From an archaeon (lineage in GTDB: Bacteria; Gemmatimonadota; Glassbacteria; GWA2-58-10): a stretch of DNA of 64,000 bases. The notes under the pieces are model-generated. The model was not told where the DNA came from, did no database searches, and saw only the letters and a list, made by a program, of their open reading frames with translations. The translations under genes were made by a program, and so were the position numbers. The stretch spans positions 4,215-68,214 of the forward strand of contig DATKXY010000098.1 in assembly GCA_035528795.1 (NCBI GenBank), written 5' to 3'. Positions 12,851-49,123 of the stretch are shown here, piece after piece. How positions within the stretch are numbered: the stretch's first letter is position 1; each line of letters begins with the position of its first letter.

Positions 12851-13014
12851 AAGAATATCAGGGAGAACTTAAGGTCTAATCACGAACTCCTGATCGAATA
12901 TGACGATTAAACTTTCAGGCAGCCATTTTCGGAATTTAATACCGACATTTACGGCAGGATTGCTTTTCCATCAAATCTCCTCTGACAATCGAACCAACAA
13001 AAGGAAAATAAAAA

Positions 13015-13698
13015 ATGGGCAAGATCAAAACATTTCAACAGTTCCTGGCAACCTCCAGCCCGCAGATTCCCCTTGATGGTTTTGTGCTTAATTTGCTGAT
13101 GGCTTCGGTTCTGGCATTTTTCCTGAGTTATATCTATATCAACTATGGCAAGGCTCTTTCAAACCGGAGAGCATTTTCTCGAAATTTAGTGCTCCTTACG
13201 ATGACCACCATGCTGATCATTACGGTTGTCAAATCATCTCTGGCTCTCTCTCTGGGGCTTGTCGGCGCATTATCTATTGTCAGGTTTCGAACTGCTGTAA
13301 AAGAGCCTGAGGAGTTGGCCTATACATTTCTGGCTATTGCTATCGGCCTGGGACTTGGTGCCGACCAACGGCTGATTACCGTGGTGGCCGTGGCAATCAT
13401 TGCCGGAATTATTATTTTAAGAAATCAATTCTCCGGCCAGGAATATAACAATAATCTGCATTTGATAGTAAGCAGCCATAATCCGCAAAAAACCGAGCTG
13501 GAACAGATTGTCGAAACGCTGCGCAACTTTTTCCTGACTGTAAATCTGAAGCGGTTCGAAGAAGACGGGGAAAAACTCGAGGCAATTTTTTCAATAGAAT
13601 TTGAAACATTTAATAAGCTGAACGAAGCCAAACAGGCATTACAAAATCTCAACAGAGATATCAGTATTACATTTCTGGACAATGAAGGTGTTTTCTAA
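13015..13698 (+). CDS. DUF4956 family integral membrane protein
   Basis: Four TM segments, with the conserved core LSIVRFRTAVKEPEELAYTFLAIAIGLGLGA that I recognise as DUF4956. Its stop overlaps the next start (TAATG at 13696-13700). Confidence 0.7.
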   Translation: MGKIKTFQQFLATSSPQIPLDGFVLNLLMASVLAFFLSYIYINYGKALSNRRAFSRNLVLLTMTTMLIITVVKSSLALSLGLVGALSIVRFRTAVKEPEELAYTFLAIAIGLGLGADQRLITVVAVAIIAGIIILRNQFSGQEYNNNLHLIVSSHNPQKTELEQIVETLRNFFLTVNLKRFEEDGEKLEAIFSIEFETFNKLNEAKQALQNLNRDISITFLDNEGVF

Positions 13699-16292
13699 TG
13701 TTCTTGAAAAAAGCTGGTAAACAACGCAAGCTTATCTGCTTAAGCCGGTCATCACTTATTCTGATCTTGTGCTTTTATACTGTCTTGCTGTTTATCGGCG
13801 GCCTTTTTGCATACAGGAATGTCCGTATTTTTTACAGTAACGTGTTAAGCAAAAAGCAGCTGATAATAAACTGCTGCTGGATACCGGCTAATTATTTGAA
13901 AGGACTATTCGCCAGGCCGGAAAGATTAATAATCGATATCAAGTATAAAGATTATCAGAAATTAGCCTACAAACGGGAGATCGCTTTAGAAAGAGGAATT
14001 TTAATTACCGAGCCGGACGATTATGTTCCGGCAAAAATACGGCACGGGGATAAAACTTATAATGCGGATGTCCGGTTAAAAGGCGACTGGCTGGATCATC
14101 TTCAAAGAGATAAATGGTCGTTCAGGATTAAGATAAAAGGTGAGGACACAATTTTCGGGATGAAGGTTTTCTCTATCCAGCATCCGAAGACGAGAAGGTA
14201 TATTTATGAGTGGTTGTTCCATCAGGTTGCCGGGCGGGAAGGTTTAATCTCATTGAGATACAAATTTGTCAATGTCACGTTAAATGGTAAGAATTTAGGA
14301 GTTTACGCACTTGAGGAGCACTTTGAAAAACGGCTCATCGAGAACAATAGAAGATTGGAAGGTCCGATTATCAAGTTTAATGAATCAAATTTCTGGGCCG
14401 AAAGGCTGAATTTCGATTTGAATTACGACGGCCTGGATATCCCTGAAACAGGGTCTTATGGTTCCCTGCCGATCGATATGTTCCAGGAAAACAGAACATT
14501 CAATGATCCGGTACTGTTCAAAAACTTTGTCAATGCTCAGAATCTGCTCGAACAATTCCGGAGAGGCGCTCTTTCTGCAAATCAGGTTTTCGATGTCGAT
14601 AACTTTGCCAGATATATAGCCTTATGCGATTTGTTCGGCTCTTTTCACTCCCTGCGTGTTCATCAATTAAGATTCTACTACAATCCTGTCTTATCGTTAT
14701 TGGAACCGATTCCGTTCGATCTCAATGCAGGCGATAAACTTACCAGTCTTGCCGGCATTGCAATCGCCAATACCGATTTTTTTTCTGATCTGTTTAAGGA
14801 ATATTCTTTCTGGGAGACTTACCTCTCCGAACTCGAGAGATTTTCTGAGCCGGCTTTTCTAAATGATTTATTCCTGGATCTTGGCGATGAGATGAATGAA
14901 AACATTAACATAATTTACAGCGAATTTCCATGGCTCGACTTTCCGAAAGATCTCCTCTATCAAAACCAGGACTATATCCGGAAAGTATTGAGCCCTGTCC
15001 AGGGTCTGCATGCCTACTTCAACAAAAGCGGTGTGGACAGGATTACACTGGAGCTGGGAAATATACAGCAAATTCCGGTCGAGGTGTTGAATGTATCTTA
15101 TCAGGACTCAATCAGTTTTCGGGCAGATCATAGAATCATTCTGCCAGGTAAGACCCCATCACAACCTATTGCTTACCAAAATGTCGATTTCATGCTTCCC
15201 ACAAGCTATATCTGGTCAGATATCCTGATCGGGGGCTTGAAAATCAATTACAAGCTTTTAGGAACAAGCCGGTTGAGAAATGAAAGCGTTTTTGCCTGGT
15301 CTCATTTAGACAGCAGTTATGTAAAGAACGATTTCATCAGGAAACCATCCAATGCTGATCTGTCGCCCTTCCTGGAAATAGATGAAACAAATAAAAAGAT
15401 CACTTTCAAACCTGGAAAATGGACTCTCAATCAAAACCTGGTAATACCTGAGGGATACAAAGTAGCAGCCGGCGAAGGAACAGAGCTCAATCTTTCCAAC
15501 TCCGCCAAAATCCTTTCCTATTCACCGGTGGAGTTTATCGGTTCCATTGAAAACCCTGTCCTGATCACAGCGGATTCCTCTGGCCAGGGTCTGGTGGTTT
15601 TAAACGCGGCCCGGGAATCGACTCTCCAACATGTCCAATTCAGCAACTTATCTGTCCCGAAACAAGGCGGTTGGGAATTGACCGGCGCGGTTACTTTCTA
15701 CGAATCTCCCGTAATGATCAATAATTGTCTCTTTGCCGCTCAGAGATCAGAAGATGCCTTGCATATTGTCCGATCAAAATTCCGAATTGACAGCACCTCT
15801 TTTAAGCATGTCTCAGCAGATGCTTTCGACGCCGATTTTTCAAATGGCGAAATAATGAATTCTTCTTTTGTAAATTGCGGCAATGATGCTGTCGACGTAT
15901 CGGGAAGTGCTATCGAGATAAGCAATATTTACATTAACGGGGCTGGAGACAAAGGATTGAGTGCCGGTGAAAGCAGCCAGCTCAATGTAAAGCAGGCAGA
16001 AATAGTAAATGCTGAGGTCGGTGTTGCCAGCAAGGACAACTCAAAAGTGGATATTGACCTGCTCGATATACATGAGAGCGCAGTCGGTCTGGCAGCTTTT
16101 CAGAAAAAACCCGAGTACGGCCCGGGAATTTTATCGGTAACCGGTCTGAAAATAACCAATGTCAAGCTGCCCTACCTGGTTGAAGATAACTCGATAATAA
16201 TCGTGGATAAAAAGAGAAAAGATACAAACTGTAAGAAAGTTGAAAATATGCTTTATGGAGCGGTATATGGAAAGAAAAGCGGAACCCAATAG
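13698..16292 (+). CDS. CotH-family (atypical kinase fold) protein with N-terminal TM anchor and C-terminal parallel beta-helix repeats
   Basis: The block VRLKGDWLDHLQRDKWSFRIKIKG...FSIQHP...NGKNLGVYALEEHFEKRLIE is typical of CotH. The C-terminal ~250 aa show PbH1-like repeats (NSSFVNCGNDAVDVSGS..., INGAGDKGLSAGE..., VNAEVGVASKDNS...). Confidence 0.7.
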   Translation: MFLKKAGKQRKLICLSRSSLILILCFYTVLLFIGGLFAYRNVRIFYSNVLSKKQLIINCCWIPANYLKGLFARPERLIIDIKYKDYQKLAYKREIALERGILITEPDDYVPAKIRHGDKTYNADVRLKGDWLDHLQRDKWSFRIKIKGEDTIFGMKVFSIQHPKTRRYIYEWLFHQVAGREGLISLRYKFVNVTLNGKNLGVYALEEHFEKRLIENNRRLEGPIIKFNESNFWAERLNFDLNYDGLDIPETGSYGSLPIDMFQENRTFNDPVLFKNFVNAQNLLEQFRRGALSANQVFDVDNFARYIALCDLFGSFHSLRVHQLRFYYNPVLSLLEPIPFDLNAGDKLTSLAGIAIANTDFFSDLFKEYSFWETYLSELERFSEPAFLNDLFLDLGDEMNENINIIYSEFPWLDFPKDLLYQNQDYIRKVLSPVQGLHAYFNKSGVDRITLELGNIQQIPVEVLNVSYQDSISFRADHRIILPGKTPSQPIAYQNVDFMLPTSYIWSDILIGGLKINYKLLGTSRLRNESVFAWSHLDSSYVKNDFIRKPSNADLSPFLEIDETNKKITFKPGKWTLNQNLVIPEGYKVAAGEGTELNLSNSAKILSYSPVEFIGSIENPVLITADSSGQGLVVLNAARESTLQHVQFSNLSVPKQGGWELTGAVTFYESPVMINNCLFAAQRSEDALHIVRSKFRIDSTSFKHVSADAFDADFSNGEIMNSSFVNCGNDAVDVSGSAIEISNIYINGAGDKGLSAGESSQLNVKQAEIVNAEVGVASKDNSKVDIDLLDIHESAVGLAAFQKKPEYGPGILSVTGLKITNVKLPYLVEDNSIIIVDKKRKDTNCKKVENMLYGAVYGKKSGTQ

Positions 16293-16977
16293 TCCCGATT
16301 ACCGAATCGAGAGAAAATTCGTTATTCACGGGATTATATCCAAGGAGGTGGAATTTCTTATCAAGTCCCATCCGGCAGTGTTTACTGAGATATATCCTTT
16401 ACGGCCTGTGAATAACATATATTTCGATTCGATCAGCTTTAAAAACTACACTGAAAATATTGACGGTTGCCCTGCGAGAAGAAAGATGCGTATTCGATGG
16501 TATGGTGATTTGTTTGGATACGTCGAGAATCCTGTCCTGGAATTAAAAACAAAAAATGGGTTGCTAGGCAGAAAATATTTTTATCCATTAGATCCTTTTT
16601 ATATCCACGAGAAATCGAATATATCAGCAGTCCTGGATGCTGTTAAAAACATAGAACAAGAAAAAGCAATAAGACATGAGTTAAAATCTTTAAAACCTAC
16701 GATCCTCAATCATTACAATCGAAGATACTATCAGTCAGCGGATAGGAACTATCGCCTTACAATGGATACCGATGTCGAATATTTTCGGATAGGTAGTTAT
16801 AATAACAACTTCCTGCATAAAATAAACAACAAGACGCATGTAATTCTTGAATTAAAATATACCAGGGACATTGATCATAAGGCGGGATATATCACCAACT
16901 GTTTCCCTTTCCGGGTAACAAAAAATTCGAAATATGTCGAAGGTATTGAAGAGTTGTATTCCTGGCAGGCTATCTAA
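16240..16977 (+). CDS. VTC-domain (CYTH-like polyphosphate polymerase domain) protein
   Basis: The IERKFVI opening, and the RRKMRIRWYG and ILELKY strands, fit the VTC/CYTH tunnel fold. The start is uncertain (ATG at 16240, 16255 or 16267). All candidates overlap the CotH gene end. Confidence 0.6.
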   Translation: MKICFMERYMERKAEPNSPDYRIERKFVIHGIISKEVEFLIKSHPAVFTEIYPLRPVNNIYFDSISFKNYTENIDGCPARRKMRIRWYGDLFGYVENPVLELKTKNGLLGRKYFYPLDPFYIHEKSNISAVLDAVKNIEQEKAIRHELKSLKPTILNHYNRRYYQSADRNYRLTMDTDVEYFRIGSYNNNFLHKINNKTHVILELKYTRDIDHKAGYITNCFPFRVTKNSKYVEGIEELYSWQAI

Positions 16978-17013: not shown

Positions 17014-17493
17014 CTATTTTTTATCCCTGGGCTCTTCCTTTTTCCCCAGGCATTCTTCCTCGTCATTCGTGATCTCTGCCGGCTTGCGCGGGTAGCTCAG
17101 GATAAACTGCTTGAGATACTCCCTTACGAAACACAGGAACCGCTCACAATCCGCGAGAAGAGAATGCGCCTCCCTGGCTGTGACTTTTATCTGGTCGCGG
17201 CGCTCTCCCTCATCACGGCTCCTGTAGCTGTGGTCTACGATCTGGCCGTATTCCTTGGGTATTTCGCCGCTCAGGACATAGTTCTCCTGAAAAGTTTGCA
17301 GCACTATCTGATGCTTTGGAGAGTCTTTCATTTTGAGGGCCAGCAGCGATTTAACCCCATAAAAATTGGCCTGATAAATGCGGTTAACCGAATCGGTTAC
17401 CTTTTCACTTTTCAGGAGAATCTCTGCATCCCCCTTGCTCTCGAAAGCACGCTGAACCCTGTATTTCGCCAGGTCGATAAACATATCTTTCAT
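17014..17493 (-). CDS. HEPN-domain protein (orphan, no adjacent nucleotidyltransferase partner)
   Basis: Four-helix pattern: AKYRVQRAFESKGDAEILL, RIYQANFYGVKSLLAL, KHQIVLQTFQENYV, SYRSRDEGER..VTAREAHSLLADCERF. This resembles the HEPN (PF05168-type) layout. No search was run. Confidence 0.5.
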   Translation of the reverse strand: MKDMFIDLAKYRVQRAFESKGDAEILLKSEKVTDSVNRIYQANFYGVKSLLALKMKDSPKHQIVLQTFQENYVLSGEIPKEYGQIVDHSYRSRDEGERRDQIKVTAREAHSLLADCERFLCFVREYLKQFILSYPRKPAEITNDEEECLGKKEEPRDKK

Positions 17494-31030: not shown

Positions 31031-32122
31031 TCAAACTTTATTGCTAATTTCATAAAATGAAATAGTCTTTTTTAATTGATCTGCATATTTATATATGTCA
31101 TTTAGGTCATCAATCTTATATTTAATTTCTTTTTTGTTTTCTACAATAATTCCAATATATTTTTGGGGAGTGCTAAAATACAATCTGCAAATAGGCTTTC
31201 TGTTATTGTCATCAAGTAGTATTCCGAAATAACTTAATGTATCGCGCTGAAATACCCTATTAGGTTTGACAACTTCTCGCAAAATTGATTTAACAATAAA
31301 AAATCCTTCTGTTTCTTCTAACGTTGTTTCAATTTTACCTTTACGATAAAGTTCATCTTTTAATTCTTCATCTTTTTGTTCAGGTTTCTTTTCTTTATCA
31401 GAAATATCTTCGGCTGTCATTGCAGATTTTAATCTTTCATTTATTGTCTCACTAATAAATTGATTCAAAGCTTTTATAGTAATGTCGTAAAATTGCGCTT
31501 TTACCTTCTGTGTTAACCTTCCCGTATATACTTGTGAGGCAAAAAATTCAACGAAATCATCAGAAGGAGTTTTTAATTGATTTGCCAAAATATTTTTTAT
31601 ATGGCTTGTATATTTTAGTTCGCTTGCTGAACTCATTAATTCATCAATATCAAAAGAATTCTTGGTAAGTTTTTTTAGTTCTATTATGAATTGTTGTTGT
31701 ATGTCAAATATGTTAAATTCTAAAAATGGCTTTTCATCCATTTTATTTTTTTCTTCCAAATCAGTGTAAAATCTGTAAATCATTCCATTCGTAAGAACAC
31801 CTATTCTTGCTGATGAAGAAGTGAAATAACGAAATAATTGAGAAATTTTTTCTAAATCAAGATCAGTTCCAATTTTTTTGCATTCAAAAAGTATAATTGG
31901 TTTTCCATCTTTAATTATAGCATAATCTACTTTTTCTCCTTTTTTTATACCTACATCAGAAGTAAACTCTGGAACTACTTCTGTTGGGTCAAAAATATCA
32001 TATCCTAAAGCACTTATGAAAGGCAAAACAAAAGCATTTTTTGTGGCTTCTTCGGTTTTAATAAAGTCTTGTTGTTTTTCTATTTTTCTGGCTATTTCTT
32101 GGATTTTTTCGATGAAATCCAT
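31031..32122 (-). CDS. Stand-alone PD-(D/E)XK nuclease-fold protein, type I restriction enzyme HsdR N-terminal-domain-like
   Basis: EEATKNAFVLPFISALGYD...VDYAIIKDGKPIILFECKK gives a D...E-C-K catalytic pattern in the HsdR_N-type context. The gene is strongly AT-rich compared with both flanks. Confidence 0.55.
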   Translation of the reverse strand: MDFIEKIQEIARKIEKQQDFIKTEEATKNAFVLPFISALGYDIFDPTEVVPEFTSDVGIKKGEKVDYAIIKDGKPIILFECKKIGTDLDLEKISQLFRYFTSSSARIGVLTNGMIYRFYTDLEEKNKMDEKPFLEFNIFDIQQQFIIELKKLTKNSFDIDELMSSASELKYTSHIKNILANQLKTPSDDFVEFFASQVYTGRLTQKVKAQFYDITIKALNQFISETINERLKSAMTAEDISDKEKKPEQKDEELKDELYRKGKIETTLEETEGFFIVKSILREVVKPNRVFQRDTLSYFGILLDDNNRKPICRLYFSTPQKYIGIIVENKKEIKYKIDDLNDIYKYADQLKKTISFYEISNKV

Positions 32123-39350: not shown

Positions 39351-39839
39351 TTTTGATTTGGAAAAATTTATTGTTCATTAAATCAATCGGAATAATGTAC
39401 ATAATATTTTCTTTTTCCCTCTCTGTCAAGACAAAATTTAAGCTTGCTTGGAATTTCTTTTATCCGCCTGGATGAGCGTCTAACAGCGCAAAAGAAACGC
39501 TTTTTGCGGCAGCCATAGAGGATTCAAAGATCATTATTCTGATAAAATCCACACCCTTTAGACTTCTGAAAAATAGAGGCAAGGAGAATGTATAGAGATG
39601 AGTGTATCATGCTGACGGTGGTAAAGGCTTAGTAGAATACGGTGTGGTATAGGTTAAAAAAGCATACTAAGTCGAAGAGCGCTTATCAGGAATCAGTATT
39701 GGGATAAATAATTTTAATTTTTTCCTTGCGTGAGAAGCTCTAACAATAGATTATTTTATTAGTAAATTTCTTTTCAAAGAGGCATCGGATTCATCGGGAA
39801 GATTACATCTTCAAGAGAGATATCCCCCTGGAGGCTAAT

Positions 39840-41300
39840 ATGCATTCTGCTGAGGGGCATGATACTCCAGTAACTCAGAGTGATGCTAAACAAGCTTTTA
39901 AAGCAATATTCAGGAATAATATTTTAATTGGGAGCGAAGAGATACTTTCATCACAGATTGAAAAAATCGCTAAGGAAGGTTCTGATGATATAGATAAACA
40001 AAAAAAGGCTATTGCCAAGTATCAACAAGTGTTAAAAGAGCTAAGGATAAGGTTTGGAACCTTACTTAAAATGGATAATGTGTCCTTTCTTCTAGGAGCT
40101 GGATGCTCTATAGATGCAGGGGGTGTGTCCTTATGTTCTATTCCCTTAACTGTAGAAAAATCTATTTTAGAAAAAGGTTTTAAAAATGGTTCTCCTCTGC
40201 CATGGCTTCTACTTTTTTACGATCTAATTGATTATCTTACCGAATGTCCGAAATACCAGCCCAAAGATAGATTAAACTCGATTCAGAACCTCGAAGAGAA
40301 AGCAGAACCAAATATAAGTATAAAAGCAAATTTCGAACAATTTCTCTCGACTCTTTTTACAATCGTTGCTAGTACTATCGGAAACGAGATAACAATTTCC
40401 TTTAGTGAAGAAAAAAAGATTAGTATAAAACGTAATAATTTAAAAACCTTGATTGAACATTTGAAGGGAAGTCTTGTTTTAACTTGCAATCTCCCCACTC
40501 CAGAGTTAAAAGATTCCCTCATTATTCAGCGCCAAATGCTCAAGAAGTTGTTAACAAGGCCCCTTAATTTGCGGCGTGTTAATCTTTTCACACTCAACTA
40601 CGATACCCTTTTTGAACAGGCCGCTGACGATGTGGGGATTGTGTTGATTGACGGGTTTATTGGCTCATTGAAGAGGGTTTTTAGACCTGAGTCATTTGAC
40701 CAAGACCTCTACTTTCCTGCGCAGACAACAGAAGGTAATGTTCGAAGACTCGACCGTGTAATACATTTGTACAAGTTGCACGGTTCGATTTCATGGCATC
40801 GAGAAGAGCCAAAATGGGAAAATCCATATGGGTTATTTGCGACATTAGTTCAGCAGGATTATCCACAAAAAGATGTTGTGATATATCCTACTCCCCTGAA
40901 ACATGGACAAGTCTTAGGATTCCCTTACTCTGAAATGTTCCGAAGGTTTGCCTCAGCAATAGTTCAGCCCCAATCTGCACTGTTCGTCATTGGATATGGA
41001 TTTGGGGATGAGCATGTTATTGCCTTGATTAGACAGGCCTTATCTATTCCAAGTTTTACATTGGTAATTATTGATCCAAATCCGCAAAGTGCATTTGTGA
41101 AACAACTTGAAAAACAGCAAGATCAACGTGTGTGGATAGTGAAAGGTGATAGTTTAGGGACATTTTCGGGTTTTGTTAAATATCTCCTTCCTGATTTGCA
41201 AGAAGAAAAAATTATTGAAGCAGTGATGAAAACCTATAATGCCCTTAGTCCATCTAACATAGAAAAATCCACCCCTTCAAGTGATAACCCCGATGAGTAA
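39840..41300 (+). CDS. SIR2-family (SIR2_2-type) protein, effector component of a SIR2-HerA defence pair
   Basis: The series FLLGAGCSIDAGG, LFTLNYDTLFEQA, LYKLHGSISW and FVIGYGFGDEHV is the motif order I recognise for defence-type SIR2_2 domains. AT-rich gene. Confidence 0.75.
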   Translation: MHSAEGHDTPVTQSDAKQAFKAIFRNNILIGSEEILSSQIEKIAKEGSDDIDKQKKAIAKYQQVLKELRIRFGTLLKMDNVSFLLGAGCSIDAGGVSLCSIPLTVEKSILEKGFKNGSPLPWLLLFYDLIDYLTECPKYQPKDRLNSIQNLEEKAEPNISIKANFEQFLSTLFTIVASTIGNEITISFSEEKKISIKRNNLKTLIEHLKGSLVLTCNLPTPELKDSLIIQRQMLKKLLTRPLNLRRVNLFTLNYDTLFEQAADDVGIVLIDGFIGSLKRVFRPESFDQDLYFPAQTTEGNVRRLDRVIHLYKLHGSISWHREEPKWENPYGLFATLVQQDYPQKDVVIYPTPLKHGQVLGFPYSEMFRRFASAIVQPQSALFVIGYGFGDEHVIALIRQALSIPSFTLVIIDPNPQSAFVKQLEKQQDQRVWIVKGDSLGTFSGFVKYLLPDLQEEKIIEAVMKTYNALSPSNIEKSTPSSDNPDE

Positions 41301-43494
41301 TGATTTTGAAATTGGTCGGGTGGTTGCTATCGATACATCTCAGGTAACAATAGAGTTAAATCCTGACCTGAAAGCACTCACCCGCTCAACTTATGAAAGC
41401 ACTACTGAGATAGGACGCATTAACTCCTATGTAATCATTCCCGTAGGTGCCAGAAGAATTGTAGCAATGGTTACAAGAGTTGTGATGATGGAAGAGGCTG
41501 AAATTCGGACCGATAAAACAATGGTGACCCTTCCTTCAGCGCGGCGAATTATGAAGGCCACAATGATCGGAACTATTGACGGGGAAGAATTCACCCAAGG
41601 CATAGGGCTTTTCCCAGTTCTCGACTCACCTGTGTTAGTAGCAACAAAAAGTGACTTAGAAGCGATATTTGGCAAAAAAGAACACATAAGTAAGCCACCT
41701 GAACCAGAAAAACCTGGCTATTGTATTCCTATTGGTGAATCTGTTGTTTTCCCTGATTATCAAATCAAAATAAATCCTGATGTTTTTTTCGGAAAGCACT
41801 CAGCGATTATCGGCAGCACTGGATCAGGCAAGTCTTGCACGATAGCAACAATTATCCAATCAATAATTCTGAACAAGGAAGTCAAAAGTACCAGATTTAT
41901 TATTCTGGATACCAATGGAGAGTATAGAACAGCTTTCCAGAGAGAGAAACAAAATGATGAATGGGAAGATGATGATCCAAGGTTTCGTTGTCTTTATATT
42001 CCAACCGATCCCGTCAAAACGAAAGATAAACTTGTTATACCATATTGGTTTATGAACTCAGATGATTTTGTTCGATTATTTAGGGCAAAAGAAGGCTTAC
42101 AAGCGCCAGTTCTCCTTAGAGCTCTTAGATTATCCAGATCAAAAATTGCTGGAAAACCTGGAATATTAACCACGATAGAAGTATTGAGAATTTCTTGTAC
42201 TCAAATCATGGCTCACACCCAAAATGATACACCAACACAACAGTGGGCTATAGCAAAAAACATTTATGAGTGTTGTGAAGATTCTCTTAGATACAGAGAA
42301 GTATTTCCGGAAAATGTAAAAAACTTGGACAAAGCGTATGGTACTGATTTTTTTCTTGATTACGAAAATGCGATTAAACAGATTCAGAAAATTGCTCAAG
42401 AAGTATATGCCCCGGATGGGAAAAAAACTAACCAATCTCTTGGTGCTACTAGAATTCAACAAATACAAAACTTTATTAATCCAGTAATTGATGCACTTAA
42501 TAAAAAAATAACCAACGAACCTACTGGGGTTCCAGAAGTATCCTCGGATCAACCAATATTTTTTGATTGCCACTCATTTTTAGAAAGAAGTCTTGAAACT
42601 GCTATGCGGGAGGAAGCTGAATCAGGAAGTCCAGGGAGAATTCGTGACGCTTGTGGTCCTATGTTCTTACGCATAAGGCGATTTTTTGAAGATCCTAGAT
42701 TCAAGTTCCTTTTTGGTCAATTTCCGAATGCTATTTACGTTCTTGCATCTTTCCTTCGTGATATTCTTGGATTATTGCCTGGAGATAATAATCTCTCTTC
42801 TTACGAAAATGTAAAGAAAGAGGTTCTTCCCTTTTATGACCGTCAGAGATCGAATATTGAAAAATCTTTTAATGTAGTAGTCATAGACCTAAGTTTGCTT
42901 GCAGCCGAGGTTCTTGAAAATGTTACAGCCTTAATTGGGCGTTTGATATTGGAATTTTTACAGAGATTAGGAGATAAAAACATCAGTGGTTTTGACAGAG
43001 GTTCTTTTCCAGTAGTGTTAGTTCTCGAAGAAGCTCAAAATTACATCAGAGAATCAAGAGGGATAGAAGAGAAATCAATTTCGAGAGAGGTTTTCGAAAG
43101 GATTGCTCGTGAGGGTCGCAAGTATGGATTAGGCCTCGTGGTAGCTTCACAACGGCCAAGTGAATTATCTAAGACTGTGCTTTCGCAGTGCAATAGCTTT
43201 ATTGTTCATAGACTTCAAAATCCCGAGGATCTTAAATACTTTAGAGAGATTGTCCCAGGTATTTATGACCAATTGTTGAACCAGTTACCAGCTCTTGCAC
43301 CTCGCCATGCTTTGATTCTTGGTGAAAGTGTTCAAGCCCCTGCTCTGGTTTATATGAGAGAGTCTAATCCAATTCCGAGAAGTAAAGATCCGAAATTTTA
43401 CAAGCAATGGGTAGCGGACAAGCCTGAAATGCCTAATGTTGAAGCGATATGCCATAAGTGGGAGGGTAAGGATAGCCAAAAAAAAGAATCTTAA
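41293..43494 (+). CDS. HerA/FtsK-like (DUF87) ATPase, partner of the SIR2 protein
   Basis: Walker A AIIGSTGSGKSC, Walker B VVLVLEEAQNYI, then REGRKYGLGLVVASQRPSELSKTVLSQCNSFIVHRL. The ATG at 41293 overlaps the SIR2 stop by 8 nt. A GTG at 41281 is also possible. Confidence 0.8.
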   Translation: MSNDFEIGRVVAIDTSQVTIELNPDLKALTRSTYESTTEIGRINSYVIIPVGARRIVAMVTRVVMMEEAEIRTDKTMVTLPSARRIMKATMIGTIDGEEFTQGIGLFPVLDSPVLVATKSDLEAIFGKKEHISKPPEPEKPGYCIPIGESVVFPDYQIKINPDVFFGKHSAIIGSTGSGKSCTIATIIQSIILNKEVKSTRFIILDTNGEYRTAFQREKQNDEWEDDDPRFRCLYIPTDPVKTKDKLVIPYWFMNSDDFVRLFRAKEGLQAPVLLRALRLSRSKIAGKPGILTTIEVLRISCTQIMAHTQNDTPTQQWAIAKNIYECCEDSLRYREVFPENVKNLDKAYGTDFFLDYENAIKQIQKIAQEVYAPDGKKTNQSLGATRIQQIQNFINPVIDALNKKITNEPTGVPEVSSDQPIFFDCHSFLERSLETAMREEAESGSPGRIRDACGPMFLRIRRFFEDPRFKFLFGQFPNAIYVLASFLRDILGLLPGDNNLSSYENVKKEVLPFYDRQRSNIEKSFNVVVIDLSLLAAEVLENVTALIGRLILEFLQRLGDKNISGFDRGSFPVVLVLEEAQNYIRESRGIEEKSISREVFERIAREGRKYGLGLVVASQRPSELSKTVLSQCNSFIVHRLQNPEDLKYFREIVPGIYDQLLNQLPALAPRHALILGESVQAPALVYMRESNPIPRSKDPKFYKQWVADKPEMPNVEAICHKWEGKDSQKKES

Positions 43495-43839: not shown

Positions 43840-45585
43840 TCAAAAACTGGAAGCCTTTAACTCTTTGCCCGAGATCTGGAAAATCCTGGATAATGGAGGA
43901 TGGACAAAGAAATTTGCATTTTTAACATCAACTATCACTTCTCCGTCAACATTACCGGTGTCCAGGTTGACAGCAACAACACCACATTCCTCCTTCACTT
44001 TGGTCATTATGTACATATGATTCATTCCAGCAGACTTGAGGGAATATCTTTTACCACTACTACCAAAAAAATCTGTATTTTCCAATTTTTCATATGCACC
44101 AGCTCTAACCCCTGAACCTGCAAAACCGCTTAAAGCGCCTACAATAGCGCCTTCCAAGGCTGCTTTGCCCAGTCCCGCCCAAAACGATTCGTGGATTTCG
44201 AATTGTTCAAGAGACAAATTCCATTTTATCTCCCCGCTGGAAGTATCAATCAAACACACTTCCTGTGTTCCCATAACCGAGAGCCCGCTTTCCCTGATCT
44301 CCATTCTGGAGATATATTCCTTGAAGCTATCCAAAGAGGTCCTGCATATCTCTTTTCCATTCTCTTCAGCTACGAGAAACAGGCTGTCTCCAGCTAGCAG
44401 AGCAAGCTGGCTTTCAAGATAAAATAATCTTTGTGGAGAGCCGTTGAAGATAAATGGCGCTTCCCAGATTAAATTGCAATCAATCAGGCTGATATTAGAT
44501 AGATAATCTTCTCCAACAACATAAACATTATTCTCTCCGAATAAAGCTATAGAAAATCTTTTGCTATCATTTGGGAAAATCCATTTTAGCATGCCGCTAT
44601 TCCTATCAAACGCAGAGATTCTTTGATCTGCCACTAAATAAATAATATTTTCTTTCACAAAAAATTTATCCGGTTCGTTGGAGAATTTTATCGGCTCTTC
44701 CCAAAGCAAAGTCCCATCCGATAACCGGACAGCGTTTATAAAATCTCTTCCTTTGATATAGATGATGCCCTCATCAGCAGGATCATATTTATAAATTGAG
44801 AATGATTCATCATTATAAGAGGAAATCCACTTTGTACTTCCATGTATCTTATCGATAGCATAAAGTGATTTGGAAGATATTATATAAATACAGTTATTTC
44901 CATTATAATAATCCTGCGAAAATGATTTATTACAAAACCAATCAATTTGTCCTGTCTCGAGATCCAGCTTCCAGGGCTTATTGTAAACGAAATAAGCCGC
45001 TCTGTCTTCAATTGTCATACAAGCTGCAACATCAATAGGAAATGTCACCAGACCATATTTCGCTCCATGAACAAAAGATTTTTTAATCCCTTTATCCGGT
45101 ACAAAATCCTGGAAGGTTTTAATTTCGCCGGTCTTTAAATCATATGTAGTTAAAAAAATGTTTTTCATTTCCTGATCTTGTAAAATAAAACAACCTTTCC
45201 CGGTAGAATCAGGATATTTGAAGGATATCATTCTCCCTTCCAAGGGATCGGACTTAAGTATTTCCTTGCCATTCTCAATGTCTATAAAAGATACGGTTGT
45301 TGAAAAGCCCTTGCGTGAGAATATAGTTAATACAGGTATGTTTGGACGCCATAAGATACTGTCCACAGCATAAATATTCTCTTTTTTAAAAATAATATCC
45401 CCTGTATTTGAATCCACCAGGTAAAAATCCATTTTATCAGTAAGTAAAAGGTTTCCGGATTGGTTAATTTTCGTCCAACAGATATCCTCCCGGCATTTAA
45501 TCGTCCATAAGGAATCCGCAGCCGCAACAAAGGATGACACTTTTATCAGGAAGCATAGTGTTATTATTATCATTCTGTACATCAT
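43840..45585 (-). CDS. Secreted PQQ-like / BamB-like beta-propeller repeat protein
   Basis: Start at 45585 (GGAGGAG 4 nt upstream) gives the signal peptide MMYRMIIITLCFLIKVSSFVAAA. It has at least 8 repeats of the ..D..TG...W type (VDSNTGDIIF, DLKTGEIKTF, DLETGQIDWF, IDKIHGSTKW, LSDGTLLW, DRNSGMLKW, DTSSGEIKW, LDTGNVDG). Confidence 0.6.
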   Translation of the reverse strand: MMYRMIIITLCFLIKVSSFVAAADSLWTIKCREDICWTKINQSGNLLLTDKMDFYLVDSNTGDIIFKKENIYAVDSILWRPNIPVLTIFSRKGFSTTVSFIDIENGKEILKSDPLEGRMISFKYPDSTGKGCFILQDQEMKNIFLTTYDLKTGEIKTFQDFVPDKGIKKSFVHGAKYGLVTFPIDVAACMTIEDRAAYFVYNKPWKLDLETGQIDWFCNKSFSQDYYNGNNCIYIISSKSLYAIDKIHGSTKWISSYNDESFSIYKYDPADEGIIYIKGRDFINAVRLSDGTLLWEEPIKFSNEPDKFFVKENIIYLVADQRISAFDRNSGMLKWIFPNDSKRFSIALFGENNVYVVGEDYLSNISLIDCNLIWEAPFIFNGSPQRLFYLESQLALLAGDSLFLVAEENGKEICRTSLDSFKEYISRMEIRESGLSVMGTQEVCLIDTSSGEIKWNLSLEQFEIHESFWAGLGKAALEGAIVGALSGFAGSGVRAGAYEKLENTDFFGSSGKRYSLKSAGMNHMYIMTKVKEECGVVAVNLDTGNVDGEVIVDVKNANFFVHPPLSRIFQISGKELKASSF

Positions 45586-45646
45586 TTTACTCCTCCAGCA
45601 GAGAGGATAGAACTTATATGATAAAACTGAAACCGACATTTAACAT

Positions 45647-45836
45647 ATCAAAGTTGAAACCGTAAAAAATAGCCTTCTTTTTCGATTCTTAGCGAAAACT
45701 TTCTTTCTTTCTTTCGAGCTTTAATCGAGAGATTTCTATCGTTTCGGCGATAAATTATTACTCCTCATCCATTGTTAATACAGGATAAAAAATCTTTTTA
45801 CTCGTCTCTCCTTCCTTGTAAATGGTTACTGGAAAA
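45647..45836 (-). repeat. Upstream (leader/promoter) repeat, copy 1, about 190 bp
   Basis: Aligns by eye with 46867-47050. Shared blocks are AGCCTTCTTTT.GATTCTTAGCGAAA, TTTCGAGCTTTAATCGAGAGATTTCTATC, and GGATAAAAAATCTTTTTACTCGTCTCTCCTTC...TAAATGGTTACTGGAAAA. Begins 62 nt upstream of the start at 45585. Confidence 0.85.
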
Positions 45837-45996: not shown

Positions 45997-46812
45997 TCAA
46001 TGATTGGATTCACTAAGTGTATCGACAGGGCAATACACACGGGGAAGGTGAAATGTAGGACCACCAACTAATGTGGCTGTAATTTCTATTTCTTCCCCTT
46101 GACAGAGCTTTGCCCGAACATACACACCTTCTCTATCATTGTTACGTAAAATAATTGTTTTCGGGGAAACGGTTCCCCGAATGTTATCTCTAATGCTCAA
46201 TGTGTTTGGATCCAGAAGACTGAAAGTTGTTTCGCCAAAGCTAATGCTGTTATTAGCTTTTACTTCCACCATGCCATTGAGGCGAAACTCCAAAACTTCG
46301 ACTCCGATGCCAGGTTCCATGTCTACCAAACATGGAACACCGCTGCTTAGGATCCAGGGAGATCTACACAGATCGATTACGAGGAGACGGCTCTTTACTG
46401 CGTCTTGGACTGGCGTATCATCCACATTTTCAGAGATCTTCCTCAAGAGCTCCTCGTCGGTTAGCTGCCCAGTGGCAACCACACGGACAACCGATGCACT
46501 ATCTGTCATCGCGATCTCAGCAAGAAGCGACTGATCTGTAAGCTTTTTTACGGCAGCCTCGCGTACGGCATCGGCCTTGTCAGCCCTGGCAATTGAGCCC
46601 AGGACGCCCTGATCATCTATAAGTGCCGTAGCCTCAGCTCTTACCAGGGCATCAGGATTATTCCTGGCGATATCCTGAAGCTTCGCACAGTCCTTCTGTT
46701 TGCCAGCATCACAATTCTTAGCCAGCTTTGCGAGATCCGTTTTGGCCAAGCCAGGCATAATCCACAATGTAAGAATGATAAAAATAATTTTGAACATGAT
46801 TTTAAACATCAT
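45997..46812 (-). CDS. Secreted HEAT/PBS-lyase-like repeat protein with a C-terminal beta-rich domain
   Basis: Signal peptide MMFKIMFKIIFIILTLWIMPGLA. Repeats of the D..VR..A...L.DQ..L..IA type (DALVRAEATALIDDQGVLGSIA, DAVREAAVKKLTDQSLLAEIA, SVVRVVATGQLTDEELLRKIS). Confidence 0.55.
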   Translation of the reverse strand: MMFKIMFKIIFIILTLWIMPGLAKTDLAKLAKNCDAGKQKDCAKLQDIARNNPDALVRAEATALIDDQGVLGSIARADKADAVREAAVKKLTDQSLLAEIAMTDSASVVRVVATGQLTDEELLRKISENVDDTPVQDAVKSRLLVIDLCRSPWILSSGVPCLVDMEPGIGVEVLEFRLNGMVEVKANNSISFGETTFSLLDPNTLSIRDNIRGTVSPKTIILRNNDREGVYVRAKLCQGEEIEITATLVGGPTFHLPRVYCPVDTLSESNH

Positions 46813-46866
46813 GTACTTATCTCCGTTCTCCTTGAGTCTAACAATGTTCTACCCGCTATTTCTCAG

Positions 46867-47050
46867 ATCAAAATTGAAACAGGGAACGAGAGCCTTCTTT
46901 TCAATTCTTAGCGAAATCTTTTGTCCTTTCGAGCTTTAATCGAGAGATTTCTATCTTTCTGGATAAATTATCCTTCCTCATCAATGTTGAAAAAAGGATA
47001 AAAAATCTTTTTTACTCGTCTCTCCTTCATTATAAATGGTTACTGGAAAA
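46867..47050 (-). repeat. Upstream (leader/promoter) repeat, copy 2
   Basis: Paralogous to 45647-45836. Begins 55 nt upstream of the start at 46812. Confidence 0.85.
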
Positions 47051-47711
47051 TGACCTGAACTATGAATATTTAATTTATGTTAAAATATTATGGTATTTGT
47101 CAAGAAAAAAATCAAATTAATTAAAAAATATTTAGACATCTGTCAAATTTGATAAGAATTTGTAAAATTTTTTCTCTGATGCGCGGATCATACAGCATAT
47201 TCTTGACCATCATCTTGCTCATTTCCCGGATAGCCAAGGCTTGCCAGCTTTTTCCGGTCATCAATCCACCTCAAACGACCTCATCATATTGGCAATGCAG
47301 CCCTTATATTCAGGAATATCCTCTTTCCTGAGCATCGACCCGACAGCCTTGTCAGCGGCTTTCTTGTGATTTCCCATAATCCTTGTGGTTTACTTTCAAA
47401 ACCCATACAGAGAAAGACATTATTGTCCCTGCGCTGATAAATAAGGAAAGCAGCCGCTATTCCATTACCCAAAACACCCGGCTCTATGCATTGCTAGTGA
47501 TCAAGAACTTACAGCAAGCCGGGAATTAAGTTCTGACGGTCAGGTCTGATAACCAGCTCTTGAGGAGGACTTTTCAGGTTCTGCTGCTCTTTTAGCCGGC
47601 CCTTGGCCGGATTGACAAATCCTGGTACGTTTTTTATGTAAAAAGAACCATACTTGACCGGGTCACAACGTGCGACCGGAACAGGGAGGCTGGAAATTAC
47701 ATTGTTAGAAA

Positions 47712-47852
47712 TGAACTACCCCGCGGCAAGTGAGCGAGGTATCATAAGGTTGGTAATGATTATTTTCACCCCCGCCCCCCTGGGCGACCGCCGGTCGCCC
47801 CTACGGTTGGCTTAAGGGGCCGTTTACACCACAGCAAGCTGCGGGGAATTCT
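47712..47852. repeat. REP/MITE-like element of about 140 bp with inverted arms and a central GC palindrome
   Basis: Arm GAACTACCCCGCGGCAAG (47713-47730) against the reverse complement of CAAGCTGCGGGGAATTC (47835-47851). Central hairpin GGGCGACCG-C-CGGTCGCCC (47782-47800). Confidence 0.55.
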
Positions 47853-47983
47853 TTTCGATTAAAAAGATGGTTTTTGCCTGGGATTGGCTGATTGGAAAAG
47901 AAGGATCTGCAGATTAAACGTGCCTCTGTTTTTTATCCCGGGTTAAAAACGTTTAAACTTCCCCACACGTAATCACTCGGGGC

Positions 47984-49123
47984 TTATTCAGCTTTTGGGG
48001 CAGGAAGACAGATCGTGAAAATTGTGCCTCCTGTTTCCGGGCACCTGCAGGAGATTTCCCCCCCTGCCCTGACGACTATACCATAAGCTATTGATAAACC
48101 CAGTCCTTTATGTCTTTCATGCTCCTTGGTTGTAAAAAAAGGGGTAAATATTTTTTCACGATCCTCTTCGGGAATTCCCGGCCCGTTATTGGCAAATTGC
48201 AGGAAAACAGAGTTTTCATCCCGGTAGCTGGTGATCTCTATGGTTTTATGGTCTACATTTTCCAGGGCTTCGCGCGCATTAGTCAACAGGATTATCAGTA
48301 ACTGAGAAATTTGCAGCATACTTCCTTTAAAAACCACGTTATCCCCGAGCGATTTTTTCACCTCGATCTTCGACCCCACAAGAACCATTTTTAAAGTCTC
48401 TTCGATACATTCGTTCAAATCGCAAAGTTGGGAATCCGGCATGCTGATCAGCCCGGCAAATATACCCATCTCGTGCAAGATATTAGACACATTCGTGCTC
48501 TCTTTTTCCATCATTTCCACTATTTGCGGCGTTTCGGATAATAACTCCCCGATCGTTTTTTCGGATTCCCCTGGAGCCTCATCTTTTTTAGTCAGGAGAT
48601 ATTTTTCAATTCTGGAGAGATTGTTTTTTAAGGGGACCAGATTCCGGATGATACAGTTGACAGGTTCGCTAACCTCCCTGACCAGACCATCCGTGAGCAG
48701 TCCGAGATCGGCAAGCCTGGACATCTGGAATAATTTGGAGCGCTGCTCTTCCAGTTTTCTTTCCAGTCTGATCTTCTCCCGCAGGTGATTCAGCACAGCC
48801 ATGATTTCGTAAAAGTTTATCGGTTTGTGTAAAAAATAATAAGCTCCGTTGTTTAAGGCCTCGATAGCGGTATCCATGTCAGCGTAGCCAGTAAACATGA
48901 TGAAGGGAATATCATATTTTTTCTTGCAGGCTTTGAGCAATTCCAGACCGTCCATAACCGGCATCTTGATATCTGTCATCACCACATCAGGCAAATCCTC
49001 TTCAATCAGCTTAAAAGCCTCTTCCCCATCAGCCGCCACTTTTACGGAACAGTTCTCTTCGATGAGAAATCTGCTTACCACATTAAGTACTGCATTATCG
49101 TCATCAACCAACAGAATTTTCAT
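47984..49123 (-). CDS. REC-domain plus histidine-kinase-like (DHp + HATPase_c) fusion with a degenerate H-box
   Basis: REC domain: MKILLVDDD...DVVMTDIKMPVMDG...KP. DHp region: SRLADLGLLTDGLVREVSEPVNCI, where canonical kinases have ..AHEI.NPL. HATPase_c: LLTNAREAL (N box), NNGPGIP (G1, with N in place of D), IFTPFFTTK, GLGLSIAYGIV. Confidence 0.75.
   Translation of the reverse strand: MKILLVDDDNAVLNVVSRFLIEENCSVKVAADGEEAFKLIEEDLPDVVMTDIKMPVMDGLELLKACKKKYDIPFIMFTGYADMDTAIEALNNGAYYFLHKPINFYEIMAVLNHLREKIRLERKLEEQRSKLFQMSRLADLGLLTDGLVREVSEPVNCIIRNLVPLKNNLSRIEKYLLTKKDEAPGESEKTIGELLSETPQIVEMMEKESTNVSNILHEMGIFAGLISMPDSQLCDLNECIEETLKMVLVGSKIEVKKSLGDNVVFKGSMLQISQLLIILLTNAREALENVDHKTIEITSYRDENSVFLQFANNGPGIPEEDREKIFTPFFTTKEHERHKGLGLSIAYGIVVRAGGEISCRCPETGGTIFTICLPAPKAE

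What the first reader, a model, noticed from the sequence alone, without database searches (positions are those of the whole stretch)
39840..43494. SIR2-HerA two-gene anti-phage module
- SIR2 component: ORF 39840..41300 shows the SIR2_2-type motif series (GAGCS, NYD, KLHGS, GYGFGDEH).
- HerA component: the overlapping ORF 41293..43494 is a HerA/FtsK-like ATPase. It has Walker A GSTGSGKS, Walker B LVLEEAQ and the ASQRP...HRL block.
- Organisation: the gene order, sizes (486 and 733 aa) and 8-nt overlap match the published SIR2-HerA defence system, in which HerA assembles with and controls a SIR2 NADase.
- Novelty: this is a known system type, not a new one. It is the clearest defence locus in the window and anchors the surrounding AT-rich island.
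Basis: partly seen in the sequence, partly recalled or inferred. Interest (0 to 1): 0.65.

Follow-up and report, generated by a model that had tools for sequence, protein, structure and literature searches.

The report
SIR2-HerA anti-phage gene pair
Two overlapping genes in a foreign, AT-rich stretch of a bacterial chromosome encode a divergent but intact copy of the known SIR2-HerA anti-phage system, which most likely stops infection by destroying the cell's NAD+; it is a sound call but an ordinary one.

Summary

Profile, sequence-to-PDB and fold searches all agree:
- ORF1 is a SIR2_2 protein whose nearest solved relatives are the SIR2 subunits of SIR2-HerA complexes.
- ORF2 is a defence-type HerA with an N-terminal barrel, a split RecA core and a helical insertion.

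In 77 of 79 loci from other species that encode a SIR2 relative, a HerA gene follows directly on the same strand. The two proteins' divergence is tightly correlated (Spearman 0.93). About half of the close relatives are nested in Type I restriction-modification operons, which supports a defence role.

Caveats:
- Both proteins are larger than any solved homologue.
- Both score far below NCBI's equivalog cut-offs, so this is an untested, divergent clade.
- Among solved structures, the HerA is closer in sequence to DUF4297-partnered HerAs.
- The ~10.5-kb low-GC stretch holds no other recognisable defence or mobility gene.

This is a new member of a known kind, of low to moderate interest.

The parts
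39830..39834 (+). GGAGG ribosome-binding site, 5 nt upstream of the SIR2 start codon
   Evidence: Read directly from the sequence.
39840..41300 (+). SIR2 gene (486 aa), the predicted NADase effector
   Evidence: ORF. Pfam SIR2_2 7.4e-13. PADLOC SIR2 PDLC04084 1.7e-86, residues 47-473. Best PDB sequence match is E. coli Nezha SIR2 8j4u_A, 4.7e-35. The top 39 Foldseek matches are all SIR2 chains of SIR2-HerA complexes.
40095..40109 (+). GAGCS (aa 86-90), the Rossmann-fold NAD-binding glycine motif
   Evidence: Position. G86, A87, G88 and S90 are invariant in alignment A1. Aligns with LLGAGAS of 8j4u_A.
40596..40604 (+). N253-Y-D255, two of the three putative catalytic residues
   Evidence: Position. 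N253 and D255 are invariant. Aligns with TNYD of 8j4u_A. By offset within the aligned stretch of 8w9l_A (query 245-403, chain 155-293) it should correspond to N163/D165, named as catalytic in Paenibacillus SIR2 (PMC11472057); that alignment was not read residue by residue.
40773..40787 (+). KLHGS (aa 312-316), with the catalytic histidine H314
   Evidence: Position. K312-S316 are invariant. Aligns with YKLHGS of 8j4u_A and 8yhx_G. Taken to be the counterpart of H212 in Paenibacillus SIR2, from motif conservation and the aligned range only.
40992..41015 (+). GYGFGDEH (aa 385-392), a conserved SIR2_2 C-terminal core motif
   Evidence: Position. G385, Y386, F388, G389, D390 and H392 are invariant. 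Aligns with GFGFGDYH and GYGFPDEH in solved SIR2 subunits.
41293..41300 (+). 8-nt overlap ATGAGTAA between the SIR2 stop and the HerA start (translational coupling)
   Evidence: Read directly. The same start is used in the JGI and Logan gene calls.
41293..43494 (+). HerA gene (733 aa), a hexameric ASCE/RecA-like ATPase partner
   Evidence: Pfam DUF87 1.2e-20 and FtsK_SpoIIIE 3e-09. PADLOC HerA PDLC04102 1.1e-157, residues 5-715. PDB sequence matches 9c1m_M 4.6e-57, 8wiv_A 1.8e-42, 8j4u_M 4.9e-32. Top Foldseek matches are defence HerAs, then archaeal HerA.
41308..41640 (+). N-terminal beta-barrel (aa 6-116), the expected docking surface for SIR2
   Evidence: All-beta in the AF2 model. The docking role is inferred from the Paenibacillus complex, where SIR2 alpha1 helices sit between HerA beta-barrels (PMC11472057).
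41812..41835 (+). Walker A motif GSTGSGKS (aa 174-181)
   Evidence: Position. G174-G177 and G179-S181 are invariant; S178 is nearly invariant.
42100..42852 (+). All-helical insertion (aa ~270-520) splitting the RecA core, about 100 aa longer than in the best sequence-matched solved HerA
   Evidence: Helices H270-H519 in the AF2 model. Query 264-500 corresponds to only residues 227-367 of 9c1m_M. The Paenibacillus equivalent spans aa 228-396.
43018..43038 (+). Walker B motif LVLEEAQ (aa 576-582)
   Evidence: Position. L578, E580, A581 and Q582 are invariant; E579 is nearly invariant.
43105..43215 (+). Conserved C-terminal ATPase block: AREGRKYG (605-612), ASQRP (618-622), HRLQN (639-643). Candidate arginine-finger and sensor residues.
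   Evidence: Positions. A605, R606, E607, G608, R609, K610, G612, S619-P622 and H639-N643 are invariant; A618 is nearly invariant and Y611 is not in either list. Assigning individual residues to arginine-finger or sensor roles is inference.

Best explanation
The two genes form a co-transcribed, translationally coupled SIR2-HerA anti-phage system. It was acquired horizontally and now sits in the chromosome next to the metW-metX-metY-rrf2 methionine genes.

**Proposed mechanism, by analogy with characterised systems.**
1. HerA forms a hexameric ATPase ring.
2. SIR2 forms a two-layered ring of 12-14 subunits that docks on the HerA N-terminal barrels.
3. In uninfected cells the SIR2 NADase is held in check by autoinhibition within SIR2 and by cellular ATP.
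4. During infection a phage cue acts through HerA and releases SIR2. In other subtypes the cue is a phage DNA-replication or SSB protein, or DNA ends.
5. SIR2 hydrolyses NAD+ using N253, D255 and H314. NAD+ depletion stops growth of the infected cell and blocks phage production (abortive infection).

**Shown here.** Gene structure, family membership, intact catalytic motifs, conserved pairing and co-divergence, defence-type neighbourhoods in relatives, foreign base composition.

**Inferred.** Complex formation, NADase activity, the trigger, and the abortive-infection outcome.
For: - **Intact ORFs.** 8-nt overlap and an RBS.
- **Profiles.** PADLOC SIR2 1.7e-86 and HerA 1.1e-157, near full length. 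Pfam SIR2_2 and DUF87 are above their gathering scores.
- **Solved relatives.** SIR2 matches only the SIR2 subunits of three SIR2-HerA complexes by sequence: E. coli 8j4u, S. aureus 8yhx, Paenibacillus 8w9l. Its AF2 model (pLDDT 69) ranks 39 such chains ahead of SPARSA, ThsA and DSR2 SIR2 domains. HerA matches defence HerAs by sequence and by fold.
- **Catalytic residues.** N253, D255, H314 and the Walker A/B motifs are invariant across relatives.
- **Pairing.** HerA lies directly downstream in 77 of 79 loci from diverse phyla. SIR2 and HerA pairwise identities correlate, Spearman 0.93 overall and 0.84 within the close clade.
- **Defence context in relatives.** 24 of 46 close-clade loci carry Type I R-M genes within 4 kb. 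In 16 of them hsdS ends within 125 nt of the SIR2 start (15 within 100 nt). Another relative sits beside an OLD-family nuclease and an SNF2 helicase.
- **Foreign composition.** GC3 is 0.29-0.32 against 0.63-0.72 in neighbouring housekeeping genes.
- **Mechanism as published.** PMC11472057, PMC11514289, PMC13434337.
Against: - No experiment exists for this clade.
- Both proteins score far below NCBIfam's equivalog cut-offs: SIR2_antiphage 158 vs 500 bits; HerA_antiphage_2 242 vs 850 bits. Identity to solved SIR2 and HerA subunits is only about 20-27% in fold alignments.
- Published subtypes differ in which activities they use (helicase/nuclease versus nickase) and are not interchangeable (PMC13434337). 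Details of trigger and gating therefore cannot be transferred.
- By sequence, the HerA is closer to HerAs that partner the DUF4297 nuclease than to those that partner SIR2.
- The AF2 models are of moderate confidence. The SIR2 stretches 274-304 and 326-362 are below pLDDT 50.
- The window shows no neighbouring defence or mobility genes.
Confidence: 0.85

Rival explanations
1. It is a genuine SIR2-HerA defence system, but immunity in this clade rests mainly on DNA-directed activities of the complex (nicking, nuclease, translocation). NAD+ depletion would be secondary or absent.
For: - Published subtypes differ. Nezha and Paenibacillus complexes have helicase and nuclease activities, and E. coli type III uses a HerA nickase as the first step (PMC13434337 and PMC11472057).
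- Among solved structures this HerA is closest in sequence to HerAs partnered with the DUF4297 nuclease (9c1m 4.6e-57, 8xau 6.4e-48).
- It carries an enlarged helical insertion of unknown role.
Against: - The SIR2 NAD-binding and catalytic residues are strictly conserved across the clade, which argues that NAD+ chemistry is under selection.
- In every characterised subtype NADase is part of the output.
- No nuclease motif was identified in either protein.
Confidence: 0.1
2. It is a stranded or inactive copy. The clade normally works inside a Type I R-M operon, and the window copy has lost that context, so it is non-functional or merely decaying cargo.
For: About half of the close relatives are nested between hsdS and hsdR. 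The window has no hsd genes beside the pair.
Against: - Both ORFs are full length, with all invariant residues retained.
- Roughly half of the close relatives also lack R-M neighbours.
- Characterised SIR2-HerA pairs protect as two-gene units.
- The identical SIR2 protein is found in several independent metagenome assemblies (ENA, JGI, Logan), so it is maintained in a natural population.
Confidence: 0.04
3. It is a housekeeping pair: a HerA DNA-repair translocase of the archaeal HerA-NurA type, together with a sirtuin protein deacetylase.
For: HerA also matches archaeal repair HerA (4d2i 8e-24; NCBIfam HerA_Thermprot 2.2e-33). SIR2 is the sirtuin superfamily.
Against: - No nurA, mre11 or rad50 gene lies nearby.
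- Matches to defence HerAs are much stronger than to repair HerAs.
- SIR2 has only four scattered cysteines and no CxxC pairs, so it lacks the sirtuin zinc ribbon.
- Composition is foreign, distribution across phyla is patchy, and relatives have R-M neighbourhoods.
Confidence: 0.01

Closest known systems
E. coli SIR2-HerA / Nezha (PDB 8J4U, 8SU9, 8SUB, 8UAE)
   Same: - Same gene order (SIR2 then HerA) and the same two-gene unit.
- Its SIR2 is the closest solved relative of the window's SIR2 by sequence (4.7e-35, aligned over query residues 224-421) and by fold (TM about 0.53-0.65).
- Shared GAG.S, NYD, KLHGS and G.GFGD.H motifs.
   Different: - SIR2 here is 486 aa against 415 aa, with an extra ~65-aa N-terminal region and a larger small-domain region. 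Only 24-27% identity in the fold alignment.
- HerA here is 733 aa against 610 aa. Nezha HerA ranks only fifth among solved HerAs (4.9e-32).
- Far below the NCBIfam equivalog cut-offs built around this type.
Paenibacillus sp. 453MF SIR2-HerA (PDB 8W9L, 8WIV, 8WLD) and S. aureus Sir2-HerA (PDB 8YHX, 8YHO)
   Same: - Same architecture: SIR2 ring plus HerA hexamer.
- The catalytic N-x-D and H motifs are conserved. Correspondence to Paenibacillus N163/D165/H212 is by motif and aligned range; that alignment was not read residue by residue.
- HerA has the same layout of beta-barrel, RecA core and helical bundle.
   Different: - About 20% identity in fold alignments.
- The Paenibacillus C-terminal 'arm' and the S. 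aureus details of the alpha15 lid cannot be mapped with confidence onto a model of pLDDT 69-75.
DUF4297-HerA (PDB 9C1M, 8XAU, 8ZIQ)
   Same: Its HerA subunits are the closest solved sequence relatives of the window's HerA (4.6e-57, 6.4e-48, 9.7e-49), and top or equal-top by fold.
   Different: The effector is a Cap4-like DUF4297 nuclease, not SIR2. The window's upstream gene is unambiguously SIR2, so only the ATPase module is shared.
E. coli Sir2-HerA types I-III (PMC13434337) and S. thermophilus GAO_19 SIR2/HerA (PMC11514479)
   Same: - These show that SIR2-HerA is a family of highly diverged subtypes (13-22% identity between types), each protective as a two-gene unit.
- S. thermophilus copies lie between or next to R/M genes, as do about half of this clade's members.
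   Different: Sequences of these systems were not available here, so the distance to the window's pair was not measured. Phage SSB triggers and the nickase step are shown only for E. coli type III.

Membership tests
SIR2-HerA anti-phage system (Gao et al. 2020 'GAO_19' / Nezha family, broad sense) | Effector protein with a SIR2 (SIR2_2-type) domain | tested here: met
   Pfam SIR2_2 49.2 bits against a cut-off of 24.5. PADLOC SIR2 1.7e-86. PDB and Foldseek matches to SIR2 subunits of SIR2-HerA complexes.
SIR2-HerA anti-phage system (broad sense) | Intact SIR2 NAD-binding and catalytic residues (G-A-G-x-S; N-x-D; catalytic H) | tested here: met
   GAGCS 86-90, N253/D255 and H314 are present and invariant in relatives. 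The motifs align to 8j4u_A and 8yhx_G. Correspondence to Paenibacillus N163/D165/H212 rests on the aligned range of 8w9l_A, not on a printed alignment.
SIR2-HerA anti-phage system (broad sense) | Partner is a HerA-clade ASCE ATPase with N-terminal barrel, Walker A/B and a helical insertion | tested here: met
   Pfam DUF87 75 bits against a cut-off of 23.2. PADLOC HerA 1.1e-157. The AF2 model shows the barrel at 6-116, the RecA core at 145-262 and 528-688, and helices at 270-519. Foldseek hits are HerAs. Walker motifs are invariant.
SIR2-HerA anti-phage system (broad sense) | The two genes are adjacent, co-oriented and conserved as a pair | tested here: met
   8-nt overlap. 77 of 79 loci have HerA directly downstream. 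Co-divergence Spearman 0.93.
SIR2-HerA anti-phage system (broad sense) | SIR2 and HerA assemble into a supramolecular complex that switches on NADase | not testable with these tools
   No multimer prediction or biochemistry was available. Inferred from PMC11472057 and PMC11514289.
SIR2-HerA anti-phage system (broad sense) | Confers phage resistance with infection-dependent NAD+ depletion | not testable with these tools
   Needs an experiment. Indirect support comes from the R-M and OLD/SNF2 neighbourhoods of relatives.
NCBIfam equivalogs NF042942 (SIR2_antiphage) and NF042943/NF042944 (HerA_antiphage) | Whole-protein score at or above the curated equivalog cut-off | tested here: not met
   157.8 against 500 bits; 241.6 against 850 bits; 213.1 against 800 bits. 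The pair is related to these curated equivalog groups but is not a member of them.
DUF4297-HerA system | Effector gene encodes a DUF4297 (Cap4-like nuclease) protein | tested here: not met
   The upstream gene is SIR2, with no DUF4297 hit. Only the HerA resembles that system.
Archaeal/bacterial HerA-NurA DNA end-resection machinery | HerA encoded with nurA (often also mre11 and rad50) | tested here: not met
   Neighbouring genes are Rrf2, a beta-propeller protein, an unknown protein and a response regulator-kinase. Matches to repair HerA are weaker than to defence HerA.
Canonical sirtuin protein deacetylases | Zinc-ribbon small domain with two CxxC pairs | tested here: not met
   Only four cysteines (89, 99, 136, 216) and no CxxC pair.

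The most novel reading that the evidence does not exclude
The clade to which this pair belongs has a ~470-aa SIR2 and a ~735-aa HerA with an enlarged helical insertion. About half of its members are nested between hsdS and hsdR. The novel reading is that this clade is a distinct SIR2-HerA subtype that is functionally coupled to Type I restriction. For example, its HerA might sense DNA ends or stalled translocating R-M complexes produced when restriction fails. The window's copy would then be a stand-alone derivative that has become independent of R-M.
Probability: 0.1. Interest if true: 0.5.

Novelty: new member of a known kind. Interest (0 to 1): 0.25.

Why it matters
It adds one well-supported, uncultured-lineage example to a defence family that is already known to be widespread and subtype-rich.

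Modest value lies in three points:
- **An untested clade.** It is abundant in environmental bacteria and also found in archaea. It scores far below the curated equivalog cut-offs and has no experimentally tested member that I could identify.
- **Modular pairing.** The HerA module here is closer in sequence to HerAs that serve a different effector (DUF4297). This is in line with modular effector exchange on a shared ATPase chassis.
- **Frequent nesting in Type I R-M operons.** Relatives of this pair are often found there, which gives a concrete system for testing cooperation between restriction and abortive infection.

None of this changes current understanding.

Tried and rejected
- **A conserved third gene.** I clustered all ORFs within 4 kb of the pair in 77 loci plus the window. 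The only recurrent neighbours are Type I R-M genes (hsdM, hsdS, hsdR, sometimes fic), confirmed by Pfam. None occurs in the window, and no small accessory gene is widespread.\n- **Delimiting the island by synteny.** I searched the genome collection with the adjacent MetY. The best match is 77% identical and hits are scattered over many phyla, so there is no close genome to compare and the island borders could not be fixed that way.\n- **Signs of a mobile element.** There is no tRNA near the island and no convincing flanking direct or inverted repeats. Pfam on the island's larger ORFs found no integrase or transposase, and PADLOC found nothing in them.\n- **Carriage on phages or plasmids.** There is no phage match, and plasmid HerAs are at most 31% identical.\n- **RNA elements in or around the operon.** Rfam gave nothing at gathering thresholds apart from two tRNAs at 61 kb, and nothing at E<=0.1 in 39.3-50 kb.\n- **Promoter and terminator scans.** Counts over 39.3-44.0 kb were no different from shuffled sequence, so no transcription signals are claimed.\n- **Alternative HerA starts.** The GTG at 41281 and the ENA-called 668-aa version were rejected, because homologues conserve residues from position 1 of the ATG-41293 product.

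Full report
**1. The observation**

The + strand carries an ORF at 39840..41300 (486 aa, ATG start) and another that ends at 43494.
- The first ORF is preceded by GGAGG at 39830-39834.
- The second can start at GTG 41281 (737 aa) or ATG 41293 (733 aa).
- I take the ATG as the true start. Homologous HerAs align from residue 1, with D4, E6, G8 and R9 invariant. The JGI and Logan gene calls on identical DNA use that start. One ENA call truncates the protein to 668 aa.

Every motif listed in the finding occurs exactly once, at these positions:
- SIR2: GAGCS 86-90, NYD 253-255, KLHGS 312-316, GYGFGDEH 385-392.
- HerA: GSTGSGKS 174-181, LVLEEAQ 576-582, ASQRP 618-622, HRL 639-641.

**2. What the proteins are**

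*SIR2*
- Pfam gives SIR2_2 (49 bits, cut-off 24.5).
- The best PADLOC model, PDLC04084, matches at 1.7e-86. It covers residues 47-473 and 96% of the model.
- Against all PDB sequences, SIR2 matches only three distinct chains, each the SIR2 subunit of a SIR2-HerA complex: E. coli Nezha 8J4U at 4.7e-35, S. aureus 8YHX at 1.6e-23, and Paenibacillus 8W9L at 4.5e-13.
- An AlphaFold2 model (mean pLDDT 69, pTM 0.67) retrieves 39 SIR2-HerA SIR2 chains before any other defence SIR2 such as SPARSA, KomBC, ThsA or DSR2.
- The protein has four scattered cysteines and no CxxC pair, so it lacks the zinc ribbon of sirtuin deacetylases.

*HerA*
- Pfam gives DUF87 'Helicase HerA central domain' (75 bits, cut-off 23.2) plus FtsK_SpoIIIE.
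- The best PADLOC model, PDLC04102, matches at 1.1e-157. It covers residues 5-715 and 98% of the model.
- The AF2 model (pLDDT 75, pTM 0.71) shows an N-terminal beta-barrel (6-116). The RecA-type core is split into 145-262 (with Walker A) and 528-688 (with Walker B). An all-helical insertion (about 270-520) lies between the two halves.
- Foldseek returns defence HerAs first, then archaeal HerA.

*Conservation*
- In 16-sequence alignments of relatives at 49-66% identity, these residues are invariant: SIR2 G86, A87, G88, S90, N253, D255 and H314; most of HerA Walker A; L578, E580, A581 and Q582 of Walker B; and most of the AREGRKYG, SQRP and HRLQN blocks.
- N-x-D plus H is the triad named as catalytic in the Paenibacillus enzyme (N163, D165, H212; PMC11472057).

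**3. Is the pair conserved?**

- An alignment-driven scan of one genome per species found 79 loci that encode a SIR2 relative at 26-57% identity. They span Desulfobacterota-like MAGs, Acidobacteriota, Chloroflexota, Nitrospirota, Bacteroidota, Actinomycetota, Verrucomicrobiota (Methylacidiphilum) and the archaeon Ca. Syntrophoarchaeum.
- In 77 of them tblastn finds HerA directly downstream on the same strand. The distance between alignment ends is -7 to +117 nt in 76 of these and +328 nt in L067, where the alignment starts only at HerA residue 85. In the other two the contig ends first.
[quoted passage not shown] The two genes therefore diverge together as a unit.
- The two nearest HerA relatives in the protein database (65% identity) are also preceded by a SIR2_2 gene.

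**4. Context in relatives**

- Clustering of flanking ORFs gave only one recurrent theme, confirmed by Pfam: hsdM, sometimes fic, and hsdS upstream, with hsdR downstream.
- 24 of 46 close-clade loci have a Type I R-M gene within 4 kb. In 16 of them hsdS ends within 125 nt of the SIR2 start (15 within 100 nt). hsdR follows in 10 of 31 loci that have enough downstream sequence.
- Another relative lies beside an OLD-family nuclease and an SNF2 helicase.
- These are typical defence neighbourhoods. SIR2/HerA inserted between R/M genes has already been reported in S. thermophilus (PMC11514479).

**5. Context in the window**

- The window is chromosomal. It encodes FtsH, TilS, ValRS, formate-tetrahydrofolate ligase and MetW/MetX/MetY.
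- The pair sits in a low-GC stretch from about 39.35 to 49.94 kb, with GC 0.40 against 0.55-0.56 on either side. GC3 is 0.32 (SIR2) and 0.29 (HerA), against 0.63-0.72 in neighbouring housekeeping genes. Horizontal acquisition is the obvious reading.
- The rest of the stretch encodes a secreted PQQ-like beta-propeller protein, a 271-aa protein with no Pfam match and a response-regulator/HATPase hybrid. None has a PADLOC hit.
- There is no tRNA or convincing flanking repeat, and none of the larger ORFs scanned is an integrase or transposase.
- 'AT-rich island' is therefore correct, but 'defence island' is not supported.

**6. How it most likely works**

From the characterised systems:
- SIR2 forms a 12- to 14-mer ring that docks on the beta-barrels of a HerA hexamer.
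- Free SIR2 is autoinhibited. Binding to HerA activates the NADase allosterically.
- ATP acts as a brake, and phage proteins or DNA ends release it.
- The outcome is NAD+ collapse and abortive infection (PMC11472057, PMC11514289, PMC13434337).

The window's proteins have every sequence feature this model requires. Complex formation, NADase activity, the trigger and the phenotype are inferred, not shown.

Subtypes differ in their DNA-directed activities and their HerAs are not interchangeable. The gating details for this clade are therefore open.

**7. How it differs from what is known**

- Both proteins are longer than any solved homologue: SIR2 is 486 aa against 381-428 aa, and HerA is 733 aa against 562-696 aa.
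- The extra HerA length lies mostly in the helical insertion. Query 264-500 corresponds to residues 227-367 of 9C1M.
- Both fall far below the NCBIfam equivalog cut-offs.
- Among solved structures, the HerA is closer in sequence to DUF4297-partnered HerAs (4.6e-57, 9.7e-49, 6.4e-48) than to SIR2-partnered ones (1.8e-42, 4.9e-32, 9.4e-28). Its SIR2 is closest to Nezha SIR2. This is compatible with effector exchange on a shared ATPase chassis. I did not build the phylogeny needed to show it.
- No relative was found in phage records, and plasmid HerAs are at most 31% identical.

**8. Verdict**

The pair is a new, divergent and untested member of a known kind of system. Interest is low to moderate at 0.25.

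Noticed in passing
window 45633-45836 and 46853-47050 (minus-strand leaders): A block of about 200 nt is duplicated just upstream of two adjacent minus-strand genes whose products are unrelated: 43840..45639 (PQQ-like beta-propeller) and 45997..46812 (no Pfam match). The aligned regions are 80% identical overall, with 30- and 37-nt cores identical or differing at two positions. There are only two copies in the window and no Rfam match. It may be a shared promoter or 5'-UTR regulatory element.
   Followed up: partly
window 31031-32122 (-): A single 363-aa ORF has GC 0.28 and lies between genes of GC 0.53-0.60. It carries an HSDR_N / HSDR_N_2 (PD-(D/E)xK nuclease-like) domain and has no PADLOC hit. 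It looks like a one-gene foreign insertion, possibly a defence-related orphan nuclease.
   Followed up: partly
window 17014-17493 (-): A 159-aa HEPN-domain protein lies next to valS, at the edge of another low-GC block. It may be the toxin half of a HEPN/MNT pair. No partner gene was looked for.
   Followed up: no
window 11753-16977 (+): A low-GC (0.37-0.44) four-gene cluster: an unknown 365-aa protein, a DUF4956 protein, an 864-aa CotH-kinase/beta-helix protein and a VTC-domain protein. None has a PADLOC hit.
   Followed up: no
window 47051-47983: Roughly 0.9 kb lies between the duplicated leader and the response-regulator/kinase gene (47984..49123). It has no ORF of 90 aa or more and no Rfam match at E<=0.1.
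   Followed up: partly
L080 4649-6655 versus window 41293-43494: A public ENA gene call on identical DNA starts HerA 65 codons late (668 aa) and so removes part of the conserved N-terminal barrel. Database copies of this protein (P0121) are therefore N-terminally truncated.
   Followed up: yes
L083 4240-4608, 8196-8950 (relative in a Type I R-M operon): In the locus holding one of the closest HerA relatives (65% identity), extra small genes sit inside the hsdS-SIR2-HerA-hsdR operon. They are 122 aa upstream of SIR2, and 53 aa and 198 aa (faint Y1_Tnp hit) downstream of HerA. They are not widespread in the flank clustering and are absent from the window.
   Followed up: partly
window 41293-43494 versus PDB: The HerA ranks DUF4297-partnered HerAs (9C1M, 8ZIQ, 8XAU) above SIR2-partnered HerAs by sequence, while its SIR2 partner is closest to Nezha SIR2. 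This hints at effector swapping among defence HerA lineages. No phylogeny was built.
   Followed up: partly
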